64,000 nucleotides of DNA from Escherichia coli (GTDB lineage Bacteria > Pseudomonadota > Gammaproteobacteria > Enterobacterales > Enterobacteriaceae), in the NCBI RefSeq assembly GCF_051903065.1, contig NZ_CP178438.1; one strand, written 5' to 3'. Position 1 is the stretch's first letter. Each line of letters begins with the position of its first letter. Under the pieces are notes generated by a model. The model did no database searches and was not told where the DNA came from. It saw nothing but the letters and a program-made list of their open reading frames with translations. The position numbers were made by a program, and so were the translations under genes. Below are positions 40,736-51,415 of the stretch, one piece after another.

Positions 40736-41965
40736 TTATTCTCCTTGCGGCGCGGCTGCCGGAGTATCAGCTTGCGGTGCAGGTGCAGGTGCAGGTGCAG
40801 GTGCAGGTGCAGGTGCAGGTGCAGGTGCAGGTGCAGGTTTAGCTTCCGTTGTCTCCGCTGCCGGTTGTGCCAGCAGGTTACGCACGCGAGTCTGCATCAG
40901 TTTTTCCAGCATCGCCTGGCTTTGCAGGGTTTCCGGAAGATCCATCGAGATATTTTGCTGGCTTAACTGGTCCACCTCGTCGAGGAACGCTTTGGTGGTG
41001 GCATCATCAGTATCGTAGTAAGCACGTACCCAGGTGGAGACGTTCTCCAGCGCCTGGCGATAAGTCTCTTCCTGATGACGCGGTACAGCTTGTGCTGCGA
41101 CCAGCAGGCGAGAGCGAATATTTTCGCGCAGATAGATATCCTGATTTGGCGCTAACAGCGGTACGGCGGTGTCATCACGACGGCGAATCGTAATGAAGTT
41201 GTCCATAAAGTTCTGCCAGCTTTTTTGCAGATTGATACGCCATTCGCTGATGGAACTGGAAAGCTCTTCACCGTCGGAATCCATCGGCGAACCATCGCTG
41301 TCATTATCGGCCAGACGCAGGTTATCTACCTGATTTGAAAGCTGATTAAGCTTAAGGATGATGCCGTCATAATCCACCTGCGATACTGCAGAAAGGCTGG
41401 CGATATCATCGGTAATTGCCCGACGAACGGTAATCAAACTCGGGTCATTCATATCCGCCAGGCTGGCGTCTGCACTTTTCAGCAACGCTGCAGCGGTCGT
41501 GACGTCCTGATCGCTCCACAGCTTCCGTCCGGCGAGTTTCACCAGAAAATCGGCCTGAGCCAGCAGCCAGGTTTTAGCATCGCTGCCGGAAATGGTGGCG
41601 ACCTTTTGTTGGACTTCATCCAACTGTTTTGCCAGCGTTTCTTGCTGACGATTCGCCTGCTTAAGTTGTGCAGCTTGTTGCTTAATAATGCCTTCCAGCT
41701 CGGCTTTTTGGCTCTCCTGGGCTTTTTGCAATGCCGTCAGTTGGTTAGCCAGGGCATCGCTGGTGGCGGTCTGATTGACGGCCTGTTGTTTACCCCAGCC
41801 ATACAAACCGACGCCTGCCGCCAGAGCAATAGCGATAGCCACCGCACTGAGAATCAATGCGGTATTGTTCTTACTCTTTTTTTCTGTTGCGACAGGTTGT
41901 GACGTGGTGTCCACGGCCTCCCTGGTCTCTTCAACCACGGCGGAGGTTTTTTCTTGTTCCGTCAT
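40736..41965 (-). CDS. hemX: HemX (uroporphyrinogen-III C-methyltransferase-like membrane protein)
   Basis: 409-aa ORF with coiled-coil region and a C-terminal Pro-Ala repeat tract. Confidence 0.88.
40777..40836. repeat. perfect hexanucleotide tandem repeat (gtgcag)x10 encoding (PA)n in hemX
   Basis: 10 uninterrupted gtgcag units read directly; the + strand frame gives an (RC)10 artefact ORF. Confidence 0.95.
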
Positions 41966-46958: not shown

Positions 46959-47040
46959 TGTTGTATCCTGTTTTTAAGTGATGGCGGCAGTATAAGTTGT
47001 TTCGTCTAACAGTGAAATCAACATGGTTCGGCTATAAAAC

Positions 47041-47466
47041 TTAACCTACATACCTCGTCCCATTCCAACGCAAGATTGTATCCTCGTCGCATAAAAGGTT
47101 GTGTACGCCATGATTCTTTTCTTTCATCAGGCTGATTTTGCTACAAAAATAATCAATGTTAATTTTGGAGTTATCCGGGGTCATAATACTGCAAGCCATA
47201 GTTGGTGCGTCACTCGCGGTATATCCACAATCGTCTTTCCCGCAGGCAGCGGGAGGCGTGGAGGGTGAATACGTGCAGTTAAGCGTTTCGGAAATGCCAT
47301 CATCGTTAATGTCGAGGGGACGGCTAATCTCATCGCTGTCAGTGCCTAATGTGGTTGCATCCAGGATGACGTTTGGTTTTTGTATCTCGCTTGTGGCCGC
47401 GTAATTGAAGCTGCTTGCGGCCATTATGCCTAGAGCTATGCCAATCCGTAAGGCTATTTTTTGCAT
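47041..47466 (-). CDS. small secreted Cys-rich protein of unknown function
   Basis: 141-aa ORF with N-terminal signal peptide (MQKIALRIGIALGIMAASSFNYA) and 6 Cys; its start overlaps the stop of the upstream gene by 13 nt; AT-rich. Confidence 0.6.
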   Translation of the reverse strand: MQKIALRIGIALGIMAASSFNYAATSEIQKPNVILDATTLGTDSDEISRPLDINDDGISETLNCTYSPSTPPAACGKDDCGYTASDAPTMACSIMTPDNSKINIDYFCSKISLMKEKNHGVHNLLCDEDTILRWNGTRYVG

Positions 47467-48749
47467 CCTGGTTCCTCTGTAATAATCATAATGTCTCTGT
47501 TTTGAACTTCACGCACATTCTCTTCTCTGACACGAGTTTTCGCCGGACAGGGGGATGGCGTAATCCTGACCTCTGTATCGGTCCAGGTATAAACATTGCG
47601 ATCGTCATAAGCGAAGCGATCGTTTTTAATTAGCGGGCCGTTAGTTGGAATAATTTGCACGCTCTTTGACCGTAATTGGCGGATAAAGTAAACATGTTGT
47701 TTGCCGCCATTAAATGAGTTATCAATGACCAGGTCTGGCGAATCCAGCGGAATTATTTCAAGCTGGTCTTCACCAAAAGTCGATAATTTTGTTACATACA
47801 GACGATCTTTATACTGCGCAATATTGCCAGTAATCAGATGAAATTGTTCAGGTTCAATATCCGGTAGGTCTATCCACTTGCTCCACTGACGGTCGGGCGA
47901 GAGCTGTTTACGCCAGCGAACGCGACTTTCCCCCACTTCAAAAGAGACGTCATCATCTACGGGTATCGCTTTGCCAGATAATTGCCCAAAGGGATAACGA
48001 TGCAGACCATTGTTGTCGCGAAAAACCAGCAGTGAATGAGGTATCCAGCGAATTATCTCAAATGAGTCTGCATTCGCCGTAAGGTGAACGCCATTTAAAT
48101 AAATATTCTGCCCACTGCGGATAAGCAGATCATTGGAATACAAATTTCTGTTTACACTCATAAGACGTGGATTAATACCCCACCATCTTTTTTCTAATAC
48201 AGTAACATTACTGCTGCTCCCCTGACGTCGACCGGACAAATAGAGATTTTTACTATCCACCAGCGTGGTAGAGTTACCTTCGATAGCTTTTAGTGTCGCC
48301 AGATCAACACGTGACGCGCCGCTATTACTTTCGGTGCGCTGTCCATCAAAATAGAGGCTATATTTATCGACCGCGAAGCGGCCCATAGCCTGAAAGCTGG
48401 CAATATCGACAGTGGGTATTCCCGGTGGATTGCTAACGATTTTGCCACGCCAGAGAATAACGCGGCCGTCTGTCACCCAGTGGTATTCCTCATTTTTTAT
48501 GCTTATTTCATCGGTGGGTATATAGCCTTCCACTAACTCCCGCTCCCCGGATATATTTGTCACAAGGCGCAAATCGGCTCTGTTCATCTTCGGAAATTGG
48601 GCAATGATTTTCTCATCCTCCCCATAACCTTTACCGTAAGACATGACACCGTGATCATTGTAATAGTCGAACCCTATGGCCTGTACAGCAGGTGTCAGAA
48701 ATGTGTGCCCCAACAGGATGAGTGCAACTGTGATTATTTGACCATTCAT
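47454..48749 (-). CDS. secreted DKNYY-like repeat protein, paralog B
   Basis: 431-aa ORF, signal peptide (MNGQIITVALILLGHTFLTPAVQA); recurring motifs (DKYSLYFDG, NIYLNGVHLTANADSFEI, DDRNVYTW); clearly homologous to the ORF at 48746-50224. Confidence 0.7.
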   Translation of the reverse strand: MNGQIITVALILLGHTFLTPAVQAIGFDYYNDHGVMSYGKGYGEDEKIIAQFPKMNRADLRLVTNISGERELVEGYIPTDEISIKNEEYHWVTDGRVILWRGKIVSNPPGIPTVDIASFQAMGRFAVDKYSLYFDGQRTESNSGASRVDLATLKAIEGNSTTLVDSKNLYLSGRRQGSSSNVTVLEKRWWGINPRLMSVNRNLYSNDLLIRSGQNIYLNGVHLTANADSFEIIRWIPHSLLVFRDNNGLHRYPFGQLSGKAIPVDDDVSFEVGESRVRWRKQLSPDRQWSKWIDLPDIEPEQFHLITGNIAQYKDRLYVTKLSTFGEDQLEIIPLDSPDLVIDNSFNGGKQHVYFIRQLRSKSVQIIPTNGPLIKNDRFAYDDRNVYTWTDTEVRITPSPCPAKTRVREENVREVQNRDIMIITEEPGCKK

Positions 48750-50224
48750 TTTGTCGCCTCATTGCGCGGGGCAGGAATAAATTCGCCGTCATCGGTAATT
48801 TTTCCGTCCAGATATCCCGTTTTGTAATTTACCCCGTAGCCATATCCCGAATGTTGTTCCTTCCAGATTAAGCGAACTTGTTTCGGATCAGCGGTGCGGT
48901 ATCGCCAGAGCTGCGCGCCATCAAAGCTGTAAACGTAGCGGTTATCGCGGGCATACCATCTGCGCAAAAAGGGATGGTCATTAAGATGGGCTTCGCGTTC
49001 ATCCGGAGAACGGTTATCCAGTAAGATCAGCGGTCCGTCAGATTCAAACACGTGTAAACCGGAATGGTATGGCCACCCTTCGGCACGCGTAAGTAAATAG
49101 CCGTGGCGTTTCCCGGCGTTGAAACGTTTGTTGATAATAAGATTGGGATCATCAAGTTTCACGATCTCCAGCTTGCGGTCACCAGACTCTGTTTCGATGA
49201 TGGTATAAAGCGAGTCCTGATACTGTGCGACAGCATCACTGATGGGGTGAAACTGTTCCGGATCGAGTCCGGGTAATTCTTCCTGTTTACAGTCAGGCCC
49301 CTGACGCCAGAACACTTTCTTTTCCAGCAGAGAAAAATCCAGACAGTGCTTTGTTAAATCTTCATCCCACGCCAGATTTTCCTTGTCGAGGACTTTACGC
49401 TGCAGCCCGTTTTTATCACGCCAGGTCAAGAGTGAGCCGGGCATCCAGCGCACGACGGAAAAAGTGTCCGGGTCGGCATCAAGCTGTTCGCCGTTGATCA
49501 GGATTTTGGTTCTTGTACGAGCCAGGGTATCCCAGGGGCCAAATGGCATAGCCACACAGGGATTAAACGCGGTAGAAAACTTTCCTCTTTGATCCCATGA
49601 CTTTTGTGCCAGCACACGGAAACTCTCGGGGTCAGCGAGGCGATGCCCATCGACATATAAGAAATTAGCGTCACGTAATATCAGCCCCAGTAAGTCAGGA
49701 TCCCAGGGAGGCCGGAATTCCACCTGATGCAGTGTTTTGATATCTACGCTATTTCCCCCGCCATTGTCATCGGTGCGCTTGCCTTCGAAATAGAGACTGT
49801 GTTTATCTGCGGCAAAATCACCCCATGCCTTGAACGAGGCGACATCGACGGGAGGTTTGTCTGGCGGGTTTTGCACAACTTCACCCGCGTAGAGGATATT
49901 GCGGCCATCGCTATGCCAGGAGTAATGAGGATACCAGGCTTGTGCGCCTTCATAGAGGTAGTCGGTTGTTAGATCAGTCAGAGGTGGTTCTTTATTCCAT
50001 TCATCTTGTGTTGTTGGGTCTATTAATAAATTGGGTAAACGGCGCAAACTCTTGTAATTCACGTCAGGTAGAGAAAGATTTGTTTCTTTATAAGGGCGCA
50101 GGTACACCACGCCTTTTCCCTGTTTCTGGTAAATATTATGTTCAGGTGCATCAAGCCGACATCCCCATGCCGACGATAAGAACAATGAACAAGCCAACAA
50201 ACAAACCACATTGCGATAGTGCAT
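48746..50224 (-). CDS. secreted DKNYY-like repeat protein, paralog A
   Basis: ORF 48746-50254 (GTG) trimmed to ATG at 50224 (MHYRNVVCLLACSLFLSSAWG signal peptide); motifs DKHSLYFEG, FLYVDGHRLADPESF, ILINGEQLDADPDTF, RDNRYVYSFDG; 4-nt ATGA overlap with paralog B. Confidence 0.7.
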   Translation of the reverse strand: MHYRNVVCLLACSLFLSSAWGCRLDAPEHNIYQKQGKGVVYLRPYKETNLSLPDVNYKSLRRLPNLLIDPTTQDEWNKEPPLTDLTTDYLYEGAQAWYPHYSWHSDGRNILYAGEVVQNPPDKPPVDVASFKAWGDFAADKHSLYFEGKRTDDNGGGNSVDIKTLHQVEFRPPWDPDLLGLILRDANFLYVDGHRLADPESFRVLAQKSWDQRGKFSTAFNPCVAMPFGPWDTLARTRTKILINGEQLDADPDTFSVVRWMPGSLLTWRDKNGLQRKVLDKENLAWDEDLTKHCLDFSLLEKKVFWRQGPDCKQEELPGLDPEQFHPISDAVAQYQDSLYTIIETESGDRKLEIVKLDDPNLIINKRFNAGKRHGYLLTRAEGWPYHSGLHVFESDGPLILLDNRSPDEREAHLNDHPFLRRWYARDNRYVYSFDGAQLWRYRTADPKQVRLIWKEQHSGYGYGVNYKTGYLDGKITDDGEFIPAPRNEATK

Positions 50225-50333
50225 AAAGCCATCCTGGCGCGAGGTGTTGATCACGATACTGCCAGCAGAACATAAATCCTCACACGTAAGCGTAATTCTC
50301 GCGGCAAATCGTCACTTTTCAGAATCCATAAAG
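50163..50333. repeat. direct repeat copy 1 (~171 bp): 5' end and upstream region of paralog A
   Basis: near-identical to 51245-51415 by eye (ccccatgccgacgataa...cacttttcaga..cataaag). Confidence 0.85.
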
Positions 50334-50590: not shown

Positions 50591-51145
50591 TCAATTCATT
50601 TTCCCTGTGCCATAAATTTTATCCTTCACATCCTGCCGAACGCGGGTCTTGTACCCCCCGTTGTGAAGATCTTCATACGGAGAAAAAGAATCTTTACTCC
50701 ACCCCAGCAGCACTTTATCGCCAGGCATAAAATGCACATGCAGAAAATCTTCTCCCCATTCTCTTTTGGGGAGAGGTAACGTCATATTCCGTTTCTCCAG
50801 ACGCATTCCAGCATTATACTGTGTACGAGTAGTACTTAATGTCCAGATAACCTCTGCAGTATCCCCACTGACATCACCACAACAGGTTGTTGAACCTCCA
50901 CCATTTGCAAAAGCATTCGCGCCCGCCACGCCGTTAACACTGAATCCCAGTATCGGACGGTCAATTTCACTGTGGATTTCCAGAATCACTCCACCTCTTG
51001 GACCTCCCCATACTGCCTGCCCTATATTCCACAACACGACCAGTACTGGAACGACAATTAACGTCCGCCATACCCAGCGCCCCCAGCGGGCATAACCGCG
51101 CGTAAGCTTTTGGTCAAATTTTTCCAGTTGGGTAAATAGCCCCAT
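50591..51145 (-). CDS. membrane-anchored protein of unknown function
   Basis: 184-aa ORF, one N-terminal TM helix (WRTLIVVPVLVVLWNIGQAVW) then a Gly-rich soluble domain with a CC pair (GGGSTTCCGDVSGD); lies downstream of repeat copy 2. Confidence 0.6.
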   Translation of the reverse strand: MGLFTQLEKFDQKLTRGYARWGRWVWRTLIVVPVLVVLWNIGQAVWGGPRGGVILEIHSEIDRPILGFSVNGVAGANAFANGGGSTTCCGDVSGDTAEVIWTLSTTRTQYNAGMRLEKRNMTLPLPKREWGEDFLHVHFMPGDKVLLGWSKDSFSPYEDLHNGGYKTRVRQDVKDKIYGTGKMN

Positions 51146-51237
51146 CAGATTTTATTCCCTCTTATCACCAGGTTGGCAAAGTTGTATGTCACTAGCGACT
51201 AAGGTCAGACAACGAAATTGCATGGTGCGCCACTCTA

Positions 51238-51306
51238 TTAAAAGCCCCATGCCGACGATAAAAACAACGAACAAGCCAACAAACAAACCACATTGCGATA
51301 GTGCAT
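51238..51306 (-). pseudogene. 22-codon remnant of a DKNYY-paralog signal peptide
   Basis: minus-strand ATG at 51306 encodes MHYRNVVCLLACSLFLSSAWGF then TAA; first 21 residues identical to the paralog A N-terminus. Confidence 0.7.
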
Positions 51307-51415
51307 AAAGCCATCCTGGCGCGAGGTGTTGATCACGAAACTGCCAGCAGAACATAAATCCTCACGAGTAAGCGTTATACTCGCAGCATTTCCTCACTTT
51401 TCAGACTTCATAAAG
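51245..51415. repeat. direct repeat copy 2 (~171 bp)
   Basis: same orientation as copy 1, roughly 90 percent identical by eye. Confidence 0.85.

What the first reader, a model, noticed from the sequence alone, without database searches (positions are those of the whole stretch)
47041..47466. Translationally coupled small Cys-rich secreted protein at the end of the paralog operon
The 141-aa ORF overlaps the stop of paralog B by 13 nt, has a signal peptide and six cysteines in a Ser/Thr/Asp-rich mature region (likely disulfide-stabilised, periplasmic or extracellular). It is an unannotatable third component of the same transcription unit.
Basis: seen in the sequence. Interest (0 to 1): 0.5.

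Follow-up and report, generated by a model that had tools for sequence, protein, structure and literature searches.

The report
Orphan T6SS immunity-like gene in E. coli
The small cysteine-rich exported protein is real, but it is a rare add-on to the operon whose relatives sit directly behind cell-wall-degrading type VI secretion toxins, so it is most likely a stray "antidote" gene against rival bacteria.

Summary
A 141-aa ORF lies at 47041-47466 (minus strand). It has a GAGGA ribosome-binding site, overlaps the stop of paralog B by 13 nt, starts with a signal-peptide-like segment and has six cysteines.

The window is the E. coli cyaY-lptM/dapF region, which carries an accessory island: a DUF3304 gene, two DKNYY-like paralogs and this ORF. 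The ORF is not a regular third component. The island is in 849 of 5426 complete E. coli genomes, the ORF in only 16. It arrived in a ~493-nt replacement together with a divergent 3' end of paralog B.

The protein belongs to an unnamed family of ~140-aa exported beta-proteins with four near-invariant cysteines, a DxNxDG loop and no Pfam or NCBIfam model. In at least three diverged lineages, a family member directly follows a T6SS effector ending in a lytic-transglycosylase toxin domain (PDB 9udh-like). Other members sit in orphan-immunity arrays inside T6SS clusters.

Best reading, with confidence 0.6: an orphan periplasmic T6SS immunity gene, co-transcribed with paralog B. No biochemical test was possible.

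The kind is known; this family is undescribed. Interest is modest.

The parts
47041..47466 (-). Small ORF, 141 aa. It encodes an exported Cys-rich beta-protein of an unnamed immunity-like family.
   Evidence: dN/dS is below 1.
47395..47466 (-). Predicted Sec signal peptide, about residues 1-24. The exact cleavage site was not computed.
   Evidence: Hydrophobicity profile. N-terminal hydrophobic segments or lipobox-like motifs across the family. Low pLDDT for residues 1-25.
47473..47477 (-). Shine-Dalgarno sequence GAGGA, 6 nt upstream of the ATG, inside paralog B's coding region.
   Evidence: Read from the sequence.
47454..47466 (-). 13-nt overlap between the end of paralog B (stop TAG at 47454-47456) and the start of the small ORF.
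   Evidence: The same junction occurs in L025.
46995..47487 (.). Variable segment of about 493 nt. It holds the small ORF and a divergent last ~10 codons of paralog B, and replaces about 75 nt of the common E. coli island variant.
   Evidence: Alignment with L002 and L003. C-terminal alignment of B homologs. Present in 16 of 5426 genomes.
47454..48749 (-). Paralog B, 431 aa. Exported DKNYY-like beta-repeat protein of unknown function.
48746..50254 (-). Paralog A, 502 aa. Exported, possibly a lipoprotein, DKNYY-like.
   Evidence: 36.6% identity to B.
50591..51145 (-). DUF3304 protein, 184 aa, carrying the Tli1-type domain found in Tle1 immunity proteins. It is a second orphan-immunity-like gene in the island.
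   Evidence: Literature: PMC13133936 and PMC12469244.
51245..51415 (.). Upstream copy of a 171-nt direct repeat. The other copy, 50163-50333, covers paralog A's 5' end and upstream region. Together they bracket the DUF3304 gene.

Best explanation
The ORF encodes a Sec-exported, disulfide-stabilised periplasmic beta-protein of about 117 residues after cleavage. It belongs to an unnamed family whose members act as immunity proteins for T6SS-delivered peptidoglycan hydrolases, specifically a C-terminal lytic-transglycosylase (LT) toxin domain related to PDB 9udh.

In this E. coli lineage the gene is an orphan, with no cognate toxin in the 64-kb window. It was imported by recombination together with a divergent 3' end of paralog B, into the cyaY-lptM accessory island. 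It is expressed by read-through and translational coupling from paralog B.

Inferred mechanism: the protein sits in the periplasm, binds an incoming LT toxin injected by rival Enterobacterales, and blocks cleavage of the cell wall. The same island carries a second orphan-immunity-like gene (DUF3304, Tli1-type), so this site appears to collect interbacterial-defence genes.

Shown: gene anatomy, homology, gene neighbourhoods of relatives, and population distribution. Inferred: periplasmic location, disulfides, toxin binding and protection.
For: Homology:
- An exhaustive phmmer search found 22 representatives of 47-815 aa, 17 of them 135-148 aa. Examples are P0005 (E 6e-13), P0004 (4e-13) and P0007 (1e-10).
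- The alignment shows four near-invariant cysteines, a DxNxDG loop and a C-terminal LxWNGxxY motif.

Gene context of relatives:
- L012: VgrG, DUF3828, a 912-aa effector, then P0005 after 2 nt, then PAAR and TssM.
- That effector carries a Tae3-like amidase domain (PDB 4hz9, E 1.7e-20) and a C-terminal LT domain (PDB 9udh, E 4e-34). The LT domain also matches phage baseplate-hub and transglycosylase PHROGs.
- The gene directly upstream of a family member ends in this same LT domain in L012, L019, L017/L018 (11-nt overlap) and L013, where it is a stand-alone 188-aa LT domain.
- The same holds in the named genomes Enterobacter wuhouensis and Siccibacter turicensis, with VgrG nearby.
- Other members sit in orphan arrays inside T6SS clusters: L010/L011 and L014, and E. 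coli SC418 between a GH24 effector/immunity pair and an LprI lysozyme inhibitor.
- One member lies next to a SUKH immunity gene.

The window gene itself:
- No LT toxin or T6SS part occurs in the window.
- It is a rare add-on, in 16 versus 849 of 5426 genomes.
- The recombination junctions and the divergent but homologous C-terminus of B are seen.
- Purifying selection is indicated.
- In L027 the ORF is intact while paralog B is frameshifted.

Precedent: orphan T6SS immunity islets in Salmonella Typhi (PMC7400221) and Pantoea (PMC9796082).
Against: - The window protein is only 26-34% identical to the members linked to LT effectors.
- Its own subgroup (P0001, P0002) has never been seen next to an effector. 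It was found only next to DKNYY-like paralogs at the dapF/cyaY site.
- This subgroup has two extra cysteines.
- No binding, localisation or protection data exist.
- The signal peptide was judged by inspection, not by a predictor.
Confidence: 0.6

Rival explanations
1. One reading: the small protein is a functional partner, a third subunit or accessory factor, of the two exported DKNYY-like paralogs. It would act with them in the envelope, and its translational coupling to B would reflect a need for matched amounts.
For: - There is a 13-nt overlap with B and no promoter or terminator between the genes.
- The same B-to-small junction occurs in a diverged copy, L025.
- The 50%-identical homolog P0002 directly precedes a 617-aa A-like paralog, followed by two more paralogs, also beside dapF.
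- The imported segment brought a homologous B-type C-terminus with it, so a paralog-to-small module existed in the donor.
Against: - 833 of 849 E. coli islands lack it.
- Arrays in Citrobacter, K. spallanzanii and L022 lack it, as does a second paralog pair at cycA-ytfE.
- Its position differs between loci, first in one and last in the other.
- All more distant family members are with T6SS effectors or immunity arrays, never with DKNYY-like genes.
- In L027, B is frameshifted while the small ORF is intact.
Confidence: 0.15
2. The gene is an immunity-family gene by descent, but in this E. coli lineage it is a neutral hitchhiker. It would be carried along by a recombination event, give no present benefit, and be on its way to loss.
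For: - It is very rare and nearly clonal: 16 genomes, all at least 99.6% identical.
- No cognate toxin is nearby.
- No LT-type effector was found in 5426 E. coli genomes at blastn sensitivity.
- A related orphan in E. coli SC418 is C-terminally truncated.
Against: - The ORF is intact in all copies seen, including L027 where B is broken.
- dN/dS is 0.34 against L025, though based on only 16 substitutions, and 0.19 against P0002.
- The ribosome-binding site and the overlap are preserved.
Confidence: 0.15
3. The protein is a secreted carbohydrate-binding or calcium-binding protein unrelated to toxin immunity. It could be a lectin-like domain, as the UniProt name 'Cyanovirin-N domain-containing protein' suggests, or a small FG-GAP/VCBS-type adhesion module.
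For: - UniProt entry A0A7U9H4B2, 94% identical, carries the Cyanovirin-N name.
- Foldseek hits VCBS and FG-GAP repeat proteins at E 1e-5 to 1e-4.
- The DINDDG loop resembles FG-GAP calcium sites.
- One family member has a faint Pfam FG-GAP hit.
Against: - No CVNH match in Pfam for any of the 20 members.
- An FG-GAP-like fold is compatible with an immunity role.
- Gene context consistently involves T6SS.
Confidence: 0.05

Closest known systems
Orphan T6SS immunity genes and acquired interbacterial-defence islets, for example S. Typhi SAIDI-1 (PMC7400221), Pantoea T6SS1 islands (PMC9796082) and Bacteroides AID clusters as cited in those papers
   Same: - A small exported protein with no toxin beside it.
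- Its relatives lie directly downstream of peptidoglycan-degrading T6SS effectors.
- It is located in a strain-variable chromosomal islet next to another immunity-type gene (DUF3304).
   Different: - Only one or two immunity-like genes are present, attached to an operon of unrelated DKNYY-like proteins rather than forming a dedicated array.
- It is much rarer, at 0.3% of E. coli genomes.
- The family is unnamed, and no sequence link to the SAIDI-1 genes could be tested here.
Cognate immunity proteins of T6SS peptidoglycan hydrolases (Tsi1, Tai3, Tai4, Tsi3/Tgi classes; LprI-type lysozyme inhibitors)
   Same: Predicted periplasmic location, small size, and a position immediately 3' of the effector gene in relatives.
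   Different: No sequence match to any of them. The family profile found nothing in the PDB at E up to 10 apart from zinc-finger noise. There is no Pfam or NCBIfam model. The toxin partner is an LT domain with an EF-hand-like loop.
X-Tfi XAC2610 (PDB 4qtq), immunity protein against a T4SS-delivered peptidoglycan hydrolase in Xanthomonas
FG-GAP / VCBS repeat proteins
   Same: A DxNxDG loop, and Foldseek similarity with TM about 0.58 and E 1e-5 to 1e-4.
   Different: It is not a full propeller, being only about 115 residues. Pfam FG-GAP is not reached at threshold. The conserved disulfides are not a feature of that family.

Membership tests
T6SS effector-immunity pair (immunity protein) | The gene lies immediately downstream of its cognate effector gene. 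| tested here: not met
   Not met for the window gene. Upstream is paralog B, an exported DKNYY-like protein, and there is no toxin in the 64 kb. Met for relatives in L012, L013, L017/L018, L019, L023 and L024. The window gene can therefore only be an orphan member.
T6SS effector-immunity pair (immunity protein) | The immunity protein is located in the compartment where the toxin acts. For peptidoglycan hydrolases this is the periplasm, so a signal peptide or lipobox is expected. | tested here: met
   N-terminal signal-like segment. Eighteen of the 19 aligned members whose N-terminus is present have a hydrophobic segment there, and P0021 and P0023 show lipobox-like motifs. This was judged by inspection, not with SignalP.
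T6SS effector-immunity pair (immunity protein) | The protein binds and neutralises the toxin, and protects cells from T6SS attack. | not testable with these tools
   This needs co-expression rescue, pull-down and competition assays.
Small-protein family defined here (alignment A1) | Significant sequence homology and shared motifs: C75, C80, C108, C126, W134, Y139 and the DxNxDG loop. | tested here: met
   phmmer E values of 1e-13 to 1e-7 against a library of 1.84 billion proteins. Alignment. Profile search.
Conserved component of the DKNYY-like paralog operon | The gene co-occurs with the paralogs wherever the operon is found. | tested here: not met
   Present in 16 versus 849 E. coli genomes. 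Absent in L020, L021, L022 and L028. Present in L004-L009, L025 and L027.
Cyanovirin-N (CVNH, PF08881) | A match to the CVNH profile or fold. | tested here: not met
FG-GAP / VCBS repeat | A Pfam FG-GAP or VCBS profile match, or propeller-blade fold with a calcium-binding loop. | tested here: inconclusive
   Pfam is below threshold, with the best hit at E 0.017 in one member. Foldseek hits VCBS and FG-GAP proteins at E 1e-5 to 1e-4. A DxNxDG loop is present.
Tai3 (immunity to Tae3 amidase, PDB 4hz9 chains B and C) | Sequence similarity to Tai3. | tested here: not met
   The profile search of the PDB at E up to 10 found no Tai3 chain. L023, L024 and L013 lack the Tae3-like domain yet keep the small gene.
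XAC2610-type X-Tfi immunity | Structural or sequence homology to PDB 4qtq. | tested here: inconclusive

The most novel reading that the evidence does not exclude
The cyaY-lptM site of Enterobacteriaceae may be a dedicated interbacterial-defence hot spot. In that reading the large exported DKNYY-like paralogs are themselves a new class of envelope-protecting or immunity proteins. The small Cys-rich protein and the DUF3304 protein would be further modules of the same defence operon, possibly cooperating with the paralogs rather than merely sitting beside them.
Probability: 0.12. Interest if true: 0.55.

Novelty: new member of a known kind. Interest (0 to 1): 0.32.

Why it matters
If the inference holds, three things follow.
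- It names a function for an unannotated protein family found in Enterobacter, Cronobacter, Pantoea, Erwinia, Pluralibacter, Siccibacter, Commensalibacter and rare E. coli.
- It pairs that family with a specific lytic-transglycosylase T6SS toxin domain.
- It shows that a few E. coli lineages carry an antidote to a weapon their species does not appear to own, which marks out which neighbours they compete with.

It also flags the cyaY-lptM island as a place where immunity-type genes (DUF3304 and this one) accumulate. The principle of orphan T6SS immunity genes is already established, so the gain is incremental.

Tried and rejected
- **Family libraries.** Pfam, NCBIfam, PADLOC and PHROGs gave no family for the ORF. 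The PDB sequence and profile search gave only zinc-finger noise.
- **CVNH annotation.** The UniProt name 'Cyanovirin-N' was rejected.
- **Plasmid search.** A search of plasmid records with the ORF found nothing. With paralog B it found only chromosomes mislabelled as plasmids.
- **Locus searches.** The search for related loci failed twice on alignments that were too divergent, then returned two genomes.
- **Metagenome scan.** A scan for the subgroup motif TPPAACGKDDCGYT found only one more copy of the same E. coli island, so no effector partner of the subgroup was found.
- **Rfam.** Nothing in the island.
- **Corrected recollection.** I first recalled PDB 4hz9 as Tae4-Tai4. The literature shows it is Tae3-Tai3.

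Full report
**Where we are.** The window is an Escherichia coli chromosome segment: hemX-hemD-hemC, cyaA, cyaY, an inserted island, then lptM (yifL), dapF, yigA and xerC. The island is read on the minus strand, away from dapF.
- DUF3304 protein, 184 aa, 50591-51145.
- Paralog A, 502 aa, 48746-50254.
- Paralog B, 431 aa, 47454-48749.
- The reported ORF, 141 aa, 47041-47466.

Island genes have lower GC3 (0.44-0.51) than the flanking core genes (0.59-0.65).

**Checking the observation.** All sequence-level statements hold.
- The ORF starts with ATG at 47466. A GAGGA ribosome-binding site lies 6 nt upstream.
- It overlaps the last 13 nt of paralog B.
- The protein has two basic residues, then a hydrophobic core at residues 4-19 and an Ala-rich cleavage region.
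- It has six cysteines (64, 75, 80, 92, 108, 126). The mature part is acidic and 31% Ser/Thr/Asp.
- A and B are paralogs, 36.6% identical over 325 aa, with weak Pfam DKNYY matches.
- No promoter-like or terminator-like site lies between B and the ORF.
- PGAP annotates the ORF as hypothetical protein WP_047624399.1.
- It is a real gene. It has homologs at 94%, 50% and about 30% identity. dN/dS is 0.34 against the 94% copy (7 synonymous, 9 non-synonymous changes) and 0.19 against the 50% copy.

**It is not a regular part of the operon.**
- At least 80% of the island is present in 849 of 5426 complete E. coli genomes. The ORF's DNA is present in only 16, all at least 99.6% identical.
- In the common variant, paralog B is 441 aa and runs almost up to cyaY.
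- The alignment shows a clean replacement. About 75 nt of the common variant are exchanged for about 493 nt (46995-47487) in the window.
- The common C-terminus of B (...GQTLKP) is shared with a Citrobacter-type homolog, so it is ancestral. The window's C-terminus (DIMIITEEPGCKK) is a divergent but homologous version.
- So the ORF arrived by recombination together with the 3' end of a foreign B-like gene. A paralog-to-small-gene module therefore existed in the donor.
- A metagenomic contig (L025) carries a diverged copy of that module, 93% identical at the protein level, with the same junction.
- Another contig (L027) has the same island with B split by a frameshift but the small ORF intact.
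- DKNYY-like arrays occupy the same lptM/cyaY site in Citrobacter (two genes), Klebsiella spallanzanii (four genes) and another taxon (one 664-aa gene). None has the small gene, and no T6SS genes are nearby.
- A further paralog pair lies between cycA and ytfE in another E. coli strain.
- The 50%-identical homolog P0002 is again beside dapF. There it is the first gene, followed by a 617-aa A-like paralog and two more paralogs, with a TnpB fragment upstream.

**What the protein is.**
- It matches no Pfam, NCBIfam, PADLOC or PHROG model.
- An exhaustive phmmer search of 1.84 billion representatives found 22 proteins (E up to 1e-3) of 47-815 aa, 17 of them 135-148 aa.
- Aligned, they share an N-terminal hydrophobic segment (18 of the 19 with an N-terminus; lipobox-like in P0021 and P0023), a D[IL]NxDG loop, YxYSxxxPPxxCxxxDC, YMCxS[IL]G and FCGPxxxLxWNGxxY.
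- Four cysteines are invariant or nearly so (C75, C80, C108, C126). C64 and C92 are specific to the E. coli/P0002 subgroup.
- A profile search of 5.8 billion proteins found members in Pluralibacter, Enterobacter, Erwinia, Pantoea, Cronobacter and Commensalibacter. All are named 'hypothetical' or 'lipoprotein'.
- AlphaFold gives a confident all-beta domain, mean pLDDT 86, with low confidence only in the signal region.
- Foldseek against AFDB50 found family members and then VCBS/FG-GAP repeat proteins at E 1e-5 to 1e-4.
- The UniProt label 'Cyanovirin-N domain' on a 94% identical entry is not supported.

**What its relatives do: gene context.**
- In L012 the order is VgrG, DUF3828, a 912-aa protein, then the family member P0005 starting 2 nt later, then PAAR, a 402-aa protein and TssM.
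- The 912-aa protein is a multi-domain cell-wall toxin. It has an N-terminal Tae3-like amidase (PDB 4hz9, E 1.7e-20; 4hz9 is Tae3-Tai3 according to PMC11796386).
- It also has a C-terminal lytic transglycosylase (LT) domain (PDB 9udh, E 4e-34) with an EF-hand-like loop. That domain is related to phage baseplate-hub and transglycosylase PHROGs.
- The gene directly upstream of a family member ends in this same LT domain in L019, in L017/L018 (33% identical effector, 11-nt overlap) and in L013, where it is a stand-alone 188-aa LT domain.
- The same is true in Enterobacter wuhouensis and Siccibacter turicensis, whose effector matches begin only at residue 170 of the L012 protein, downstream of its Tae3-like domain.
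- The constant partner is therefore the LT domain, across at least three diverged lineages.
- Other members are orphans inside T6SS clusters. One sits in an array of small exported proteins upstream of PAAR-TssM (L010/L011). One follows a PAAR-linked effector with a weak GH19 match (L014).
- In E. coli SC418 a member lies between a GH24 effector with its immunity gene and an LprI lysozyme inhibitor. That effector shares the L012 scaffold but carries a swapped toxin domain.
- One member sits beside a SUKH immunity gene.
- This is the standard signature of a T6SS immunity family for a periplasm-acting toxin.

**The window gene in that light.**
- No LT toxin, VgrG, PAAR or TssM is encoded in the 64 kb.
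- No LT-type effector was detected in 5426 E. coli genomes at blastn sensitivity.
- The first gene of the island is a DUF3304 protein (Pfam E 2.4e-4; PGAP name). DUF3304 is the domain found in Tli1 immunity proteins against Tle1 phospholipases (PMC13133936 and PMC12469244).
- That gene is bracketed by a 171-nt direct repeat containing paralog A's 5' end, so it too looks like an insertion.
- The conserved DKNYY-like core of the island has thus picked up an immunity-type gene at each end.
- This parallels the orphan immunity islets described in Salmonella Typhi (PMC7400221) and Pantoea (PMC9796082).

**Most likely mechanism.** These steps are inferred.
- The ORF is transcribed with paralogs A and B and translated by coupling to B.
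- It is exported by Sec and oxidised to two or three disulfides.
- It stays in the periplasm, where it would bind and block an incoming LT toxin from rival Enterobacterales.

I give this a confidence of 0.6. The main weaknesses are three.
- The window protein is only 26-34% identical to the effector-linked members.
- Its own subgroup has been seen only next to DKNYY-like genes.
- Nothing was tested biochemically.

**Rivals.**
- A true functional partner of the DKNYY-like paralogs: 0.15. The repeated adjacency favours it. The 16-of-849 distribution, the variable position and the T6SS context of all distant members count against it.
- A neutral hitchhiker of immunity descent: 0.15.
- A lectin-like or calcium-binding protein: 0.05.

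The function of the DKNYY-like paralogs stays unknown. Paralog B models as a beta-repeat protein (pLDDT 83.5) with no informative structural match, and there is no literature on the family.

**Verdict.** The ORF is best filed as a new, unnamed member of a known kind, an orphan T6SS immunity gene, attached to rather than integral to the paralog operon. It is a useful annotation lead with a clear experiment, but not a surprise in principle.

Noticed in passing
window 50163-50333 and 51245-51415: A 171-nt direct repeat (92% identical, 1082 nt apart) brackets the DUF3304 gene. The upstream copy repeats paralog A's first 31 codons and its upstream region. The DUF3304 (Tli1-type) gene therefore looks like an insertion into A's 5' region. 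The 67-aa ORF at 51152-51355 overlaps the repeat and is probably not a gene.
   Followed up: partly
window 50591-51145 (minus strand): The first island gene is a DUF3304 protein with an N-terminal membrane anchor. DUF3304 is the domain of Tli1 immunity proteins against Tle1 phospholipases, and no Tle1 gene is nearby. It looks like a second orphan immunity gene.
   Followed up: partly
L027 (metagenome contig SKEL01006386.1), 587-1881: This is the same E. coli island, but paralog B is split by a frameshift into 81-aa and 359-aa pieces while the small ORF is intact apart from one substitution.
   Followed up: no
L028 (E. coli KE47, NZ_CP141089.1, filed as a plasmid but 4.9 Mb), 6701-9610: A second pair of DKNYY-like paralogs (463 and 494 aa) lies between cycA and ytfE, with no T6SS genes nearby. 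The record is evidently a chromosome mislabelled as a plasmid.
   Followed up: partly
L012 3260-5998; L023 4744-6996; L026 4983-7211; L014 2669-5005: One T6SS effector scaffold, with a shared N-terminal and middle region, carries different C-terminal toxin domains in different strains: a lytic transglycosylase, GH24, and a third with a weak GH19 match. Each has its own downstream small genes. This is polymorphic toxin swapping that leaves orphan immunity genes behind.
   Followed up: partly
L004 1240-1566: A TnpB (Cas12f1-like TNB domain) fragment lies between dapF and the small-gene homolog. This suggests IS-mediated rearrangement at the same hot spot in another enterobacterium.
   Followed up: no
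window 40736-41965 (minus strand): HemX here is 409 aa and has a (Pro-Ala)n repeat near its C-terminus ([21 protein letters not shown]), a likely length-variable tract.
   Followed up: no
UniProt A0A7U9H4B2: This entry is 94% identical to the window protein and is named 'Cyanovirin-N domain-containing protein'. Neither Pfam nor the structure search supports that name.
   Followed up: yes
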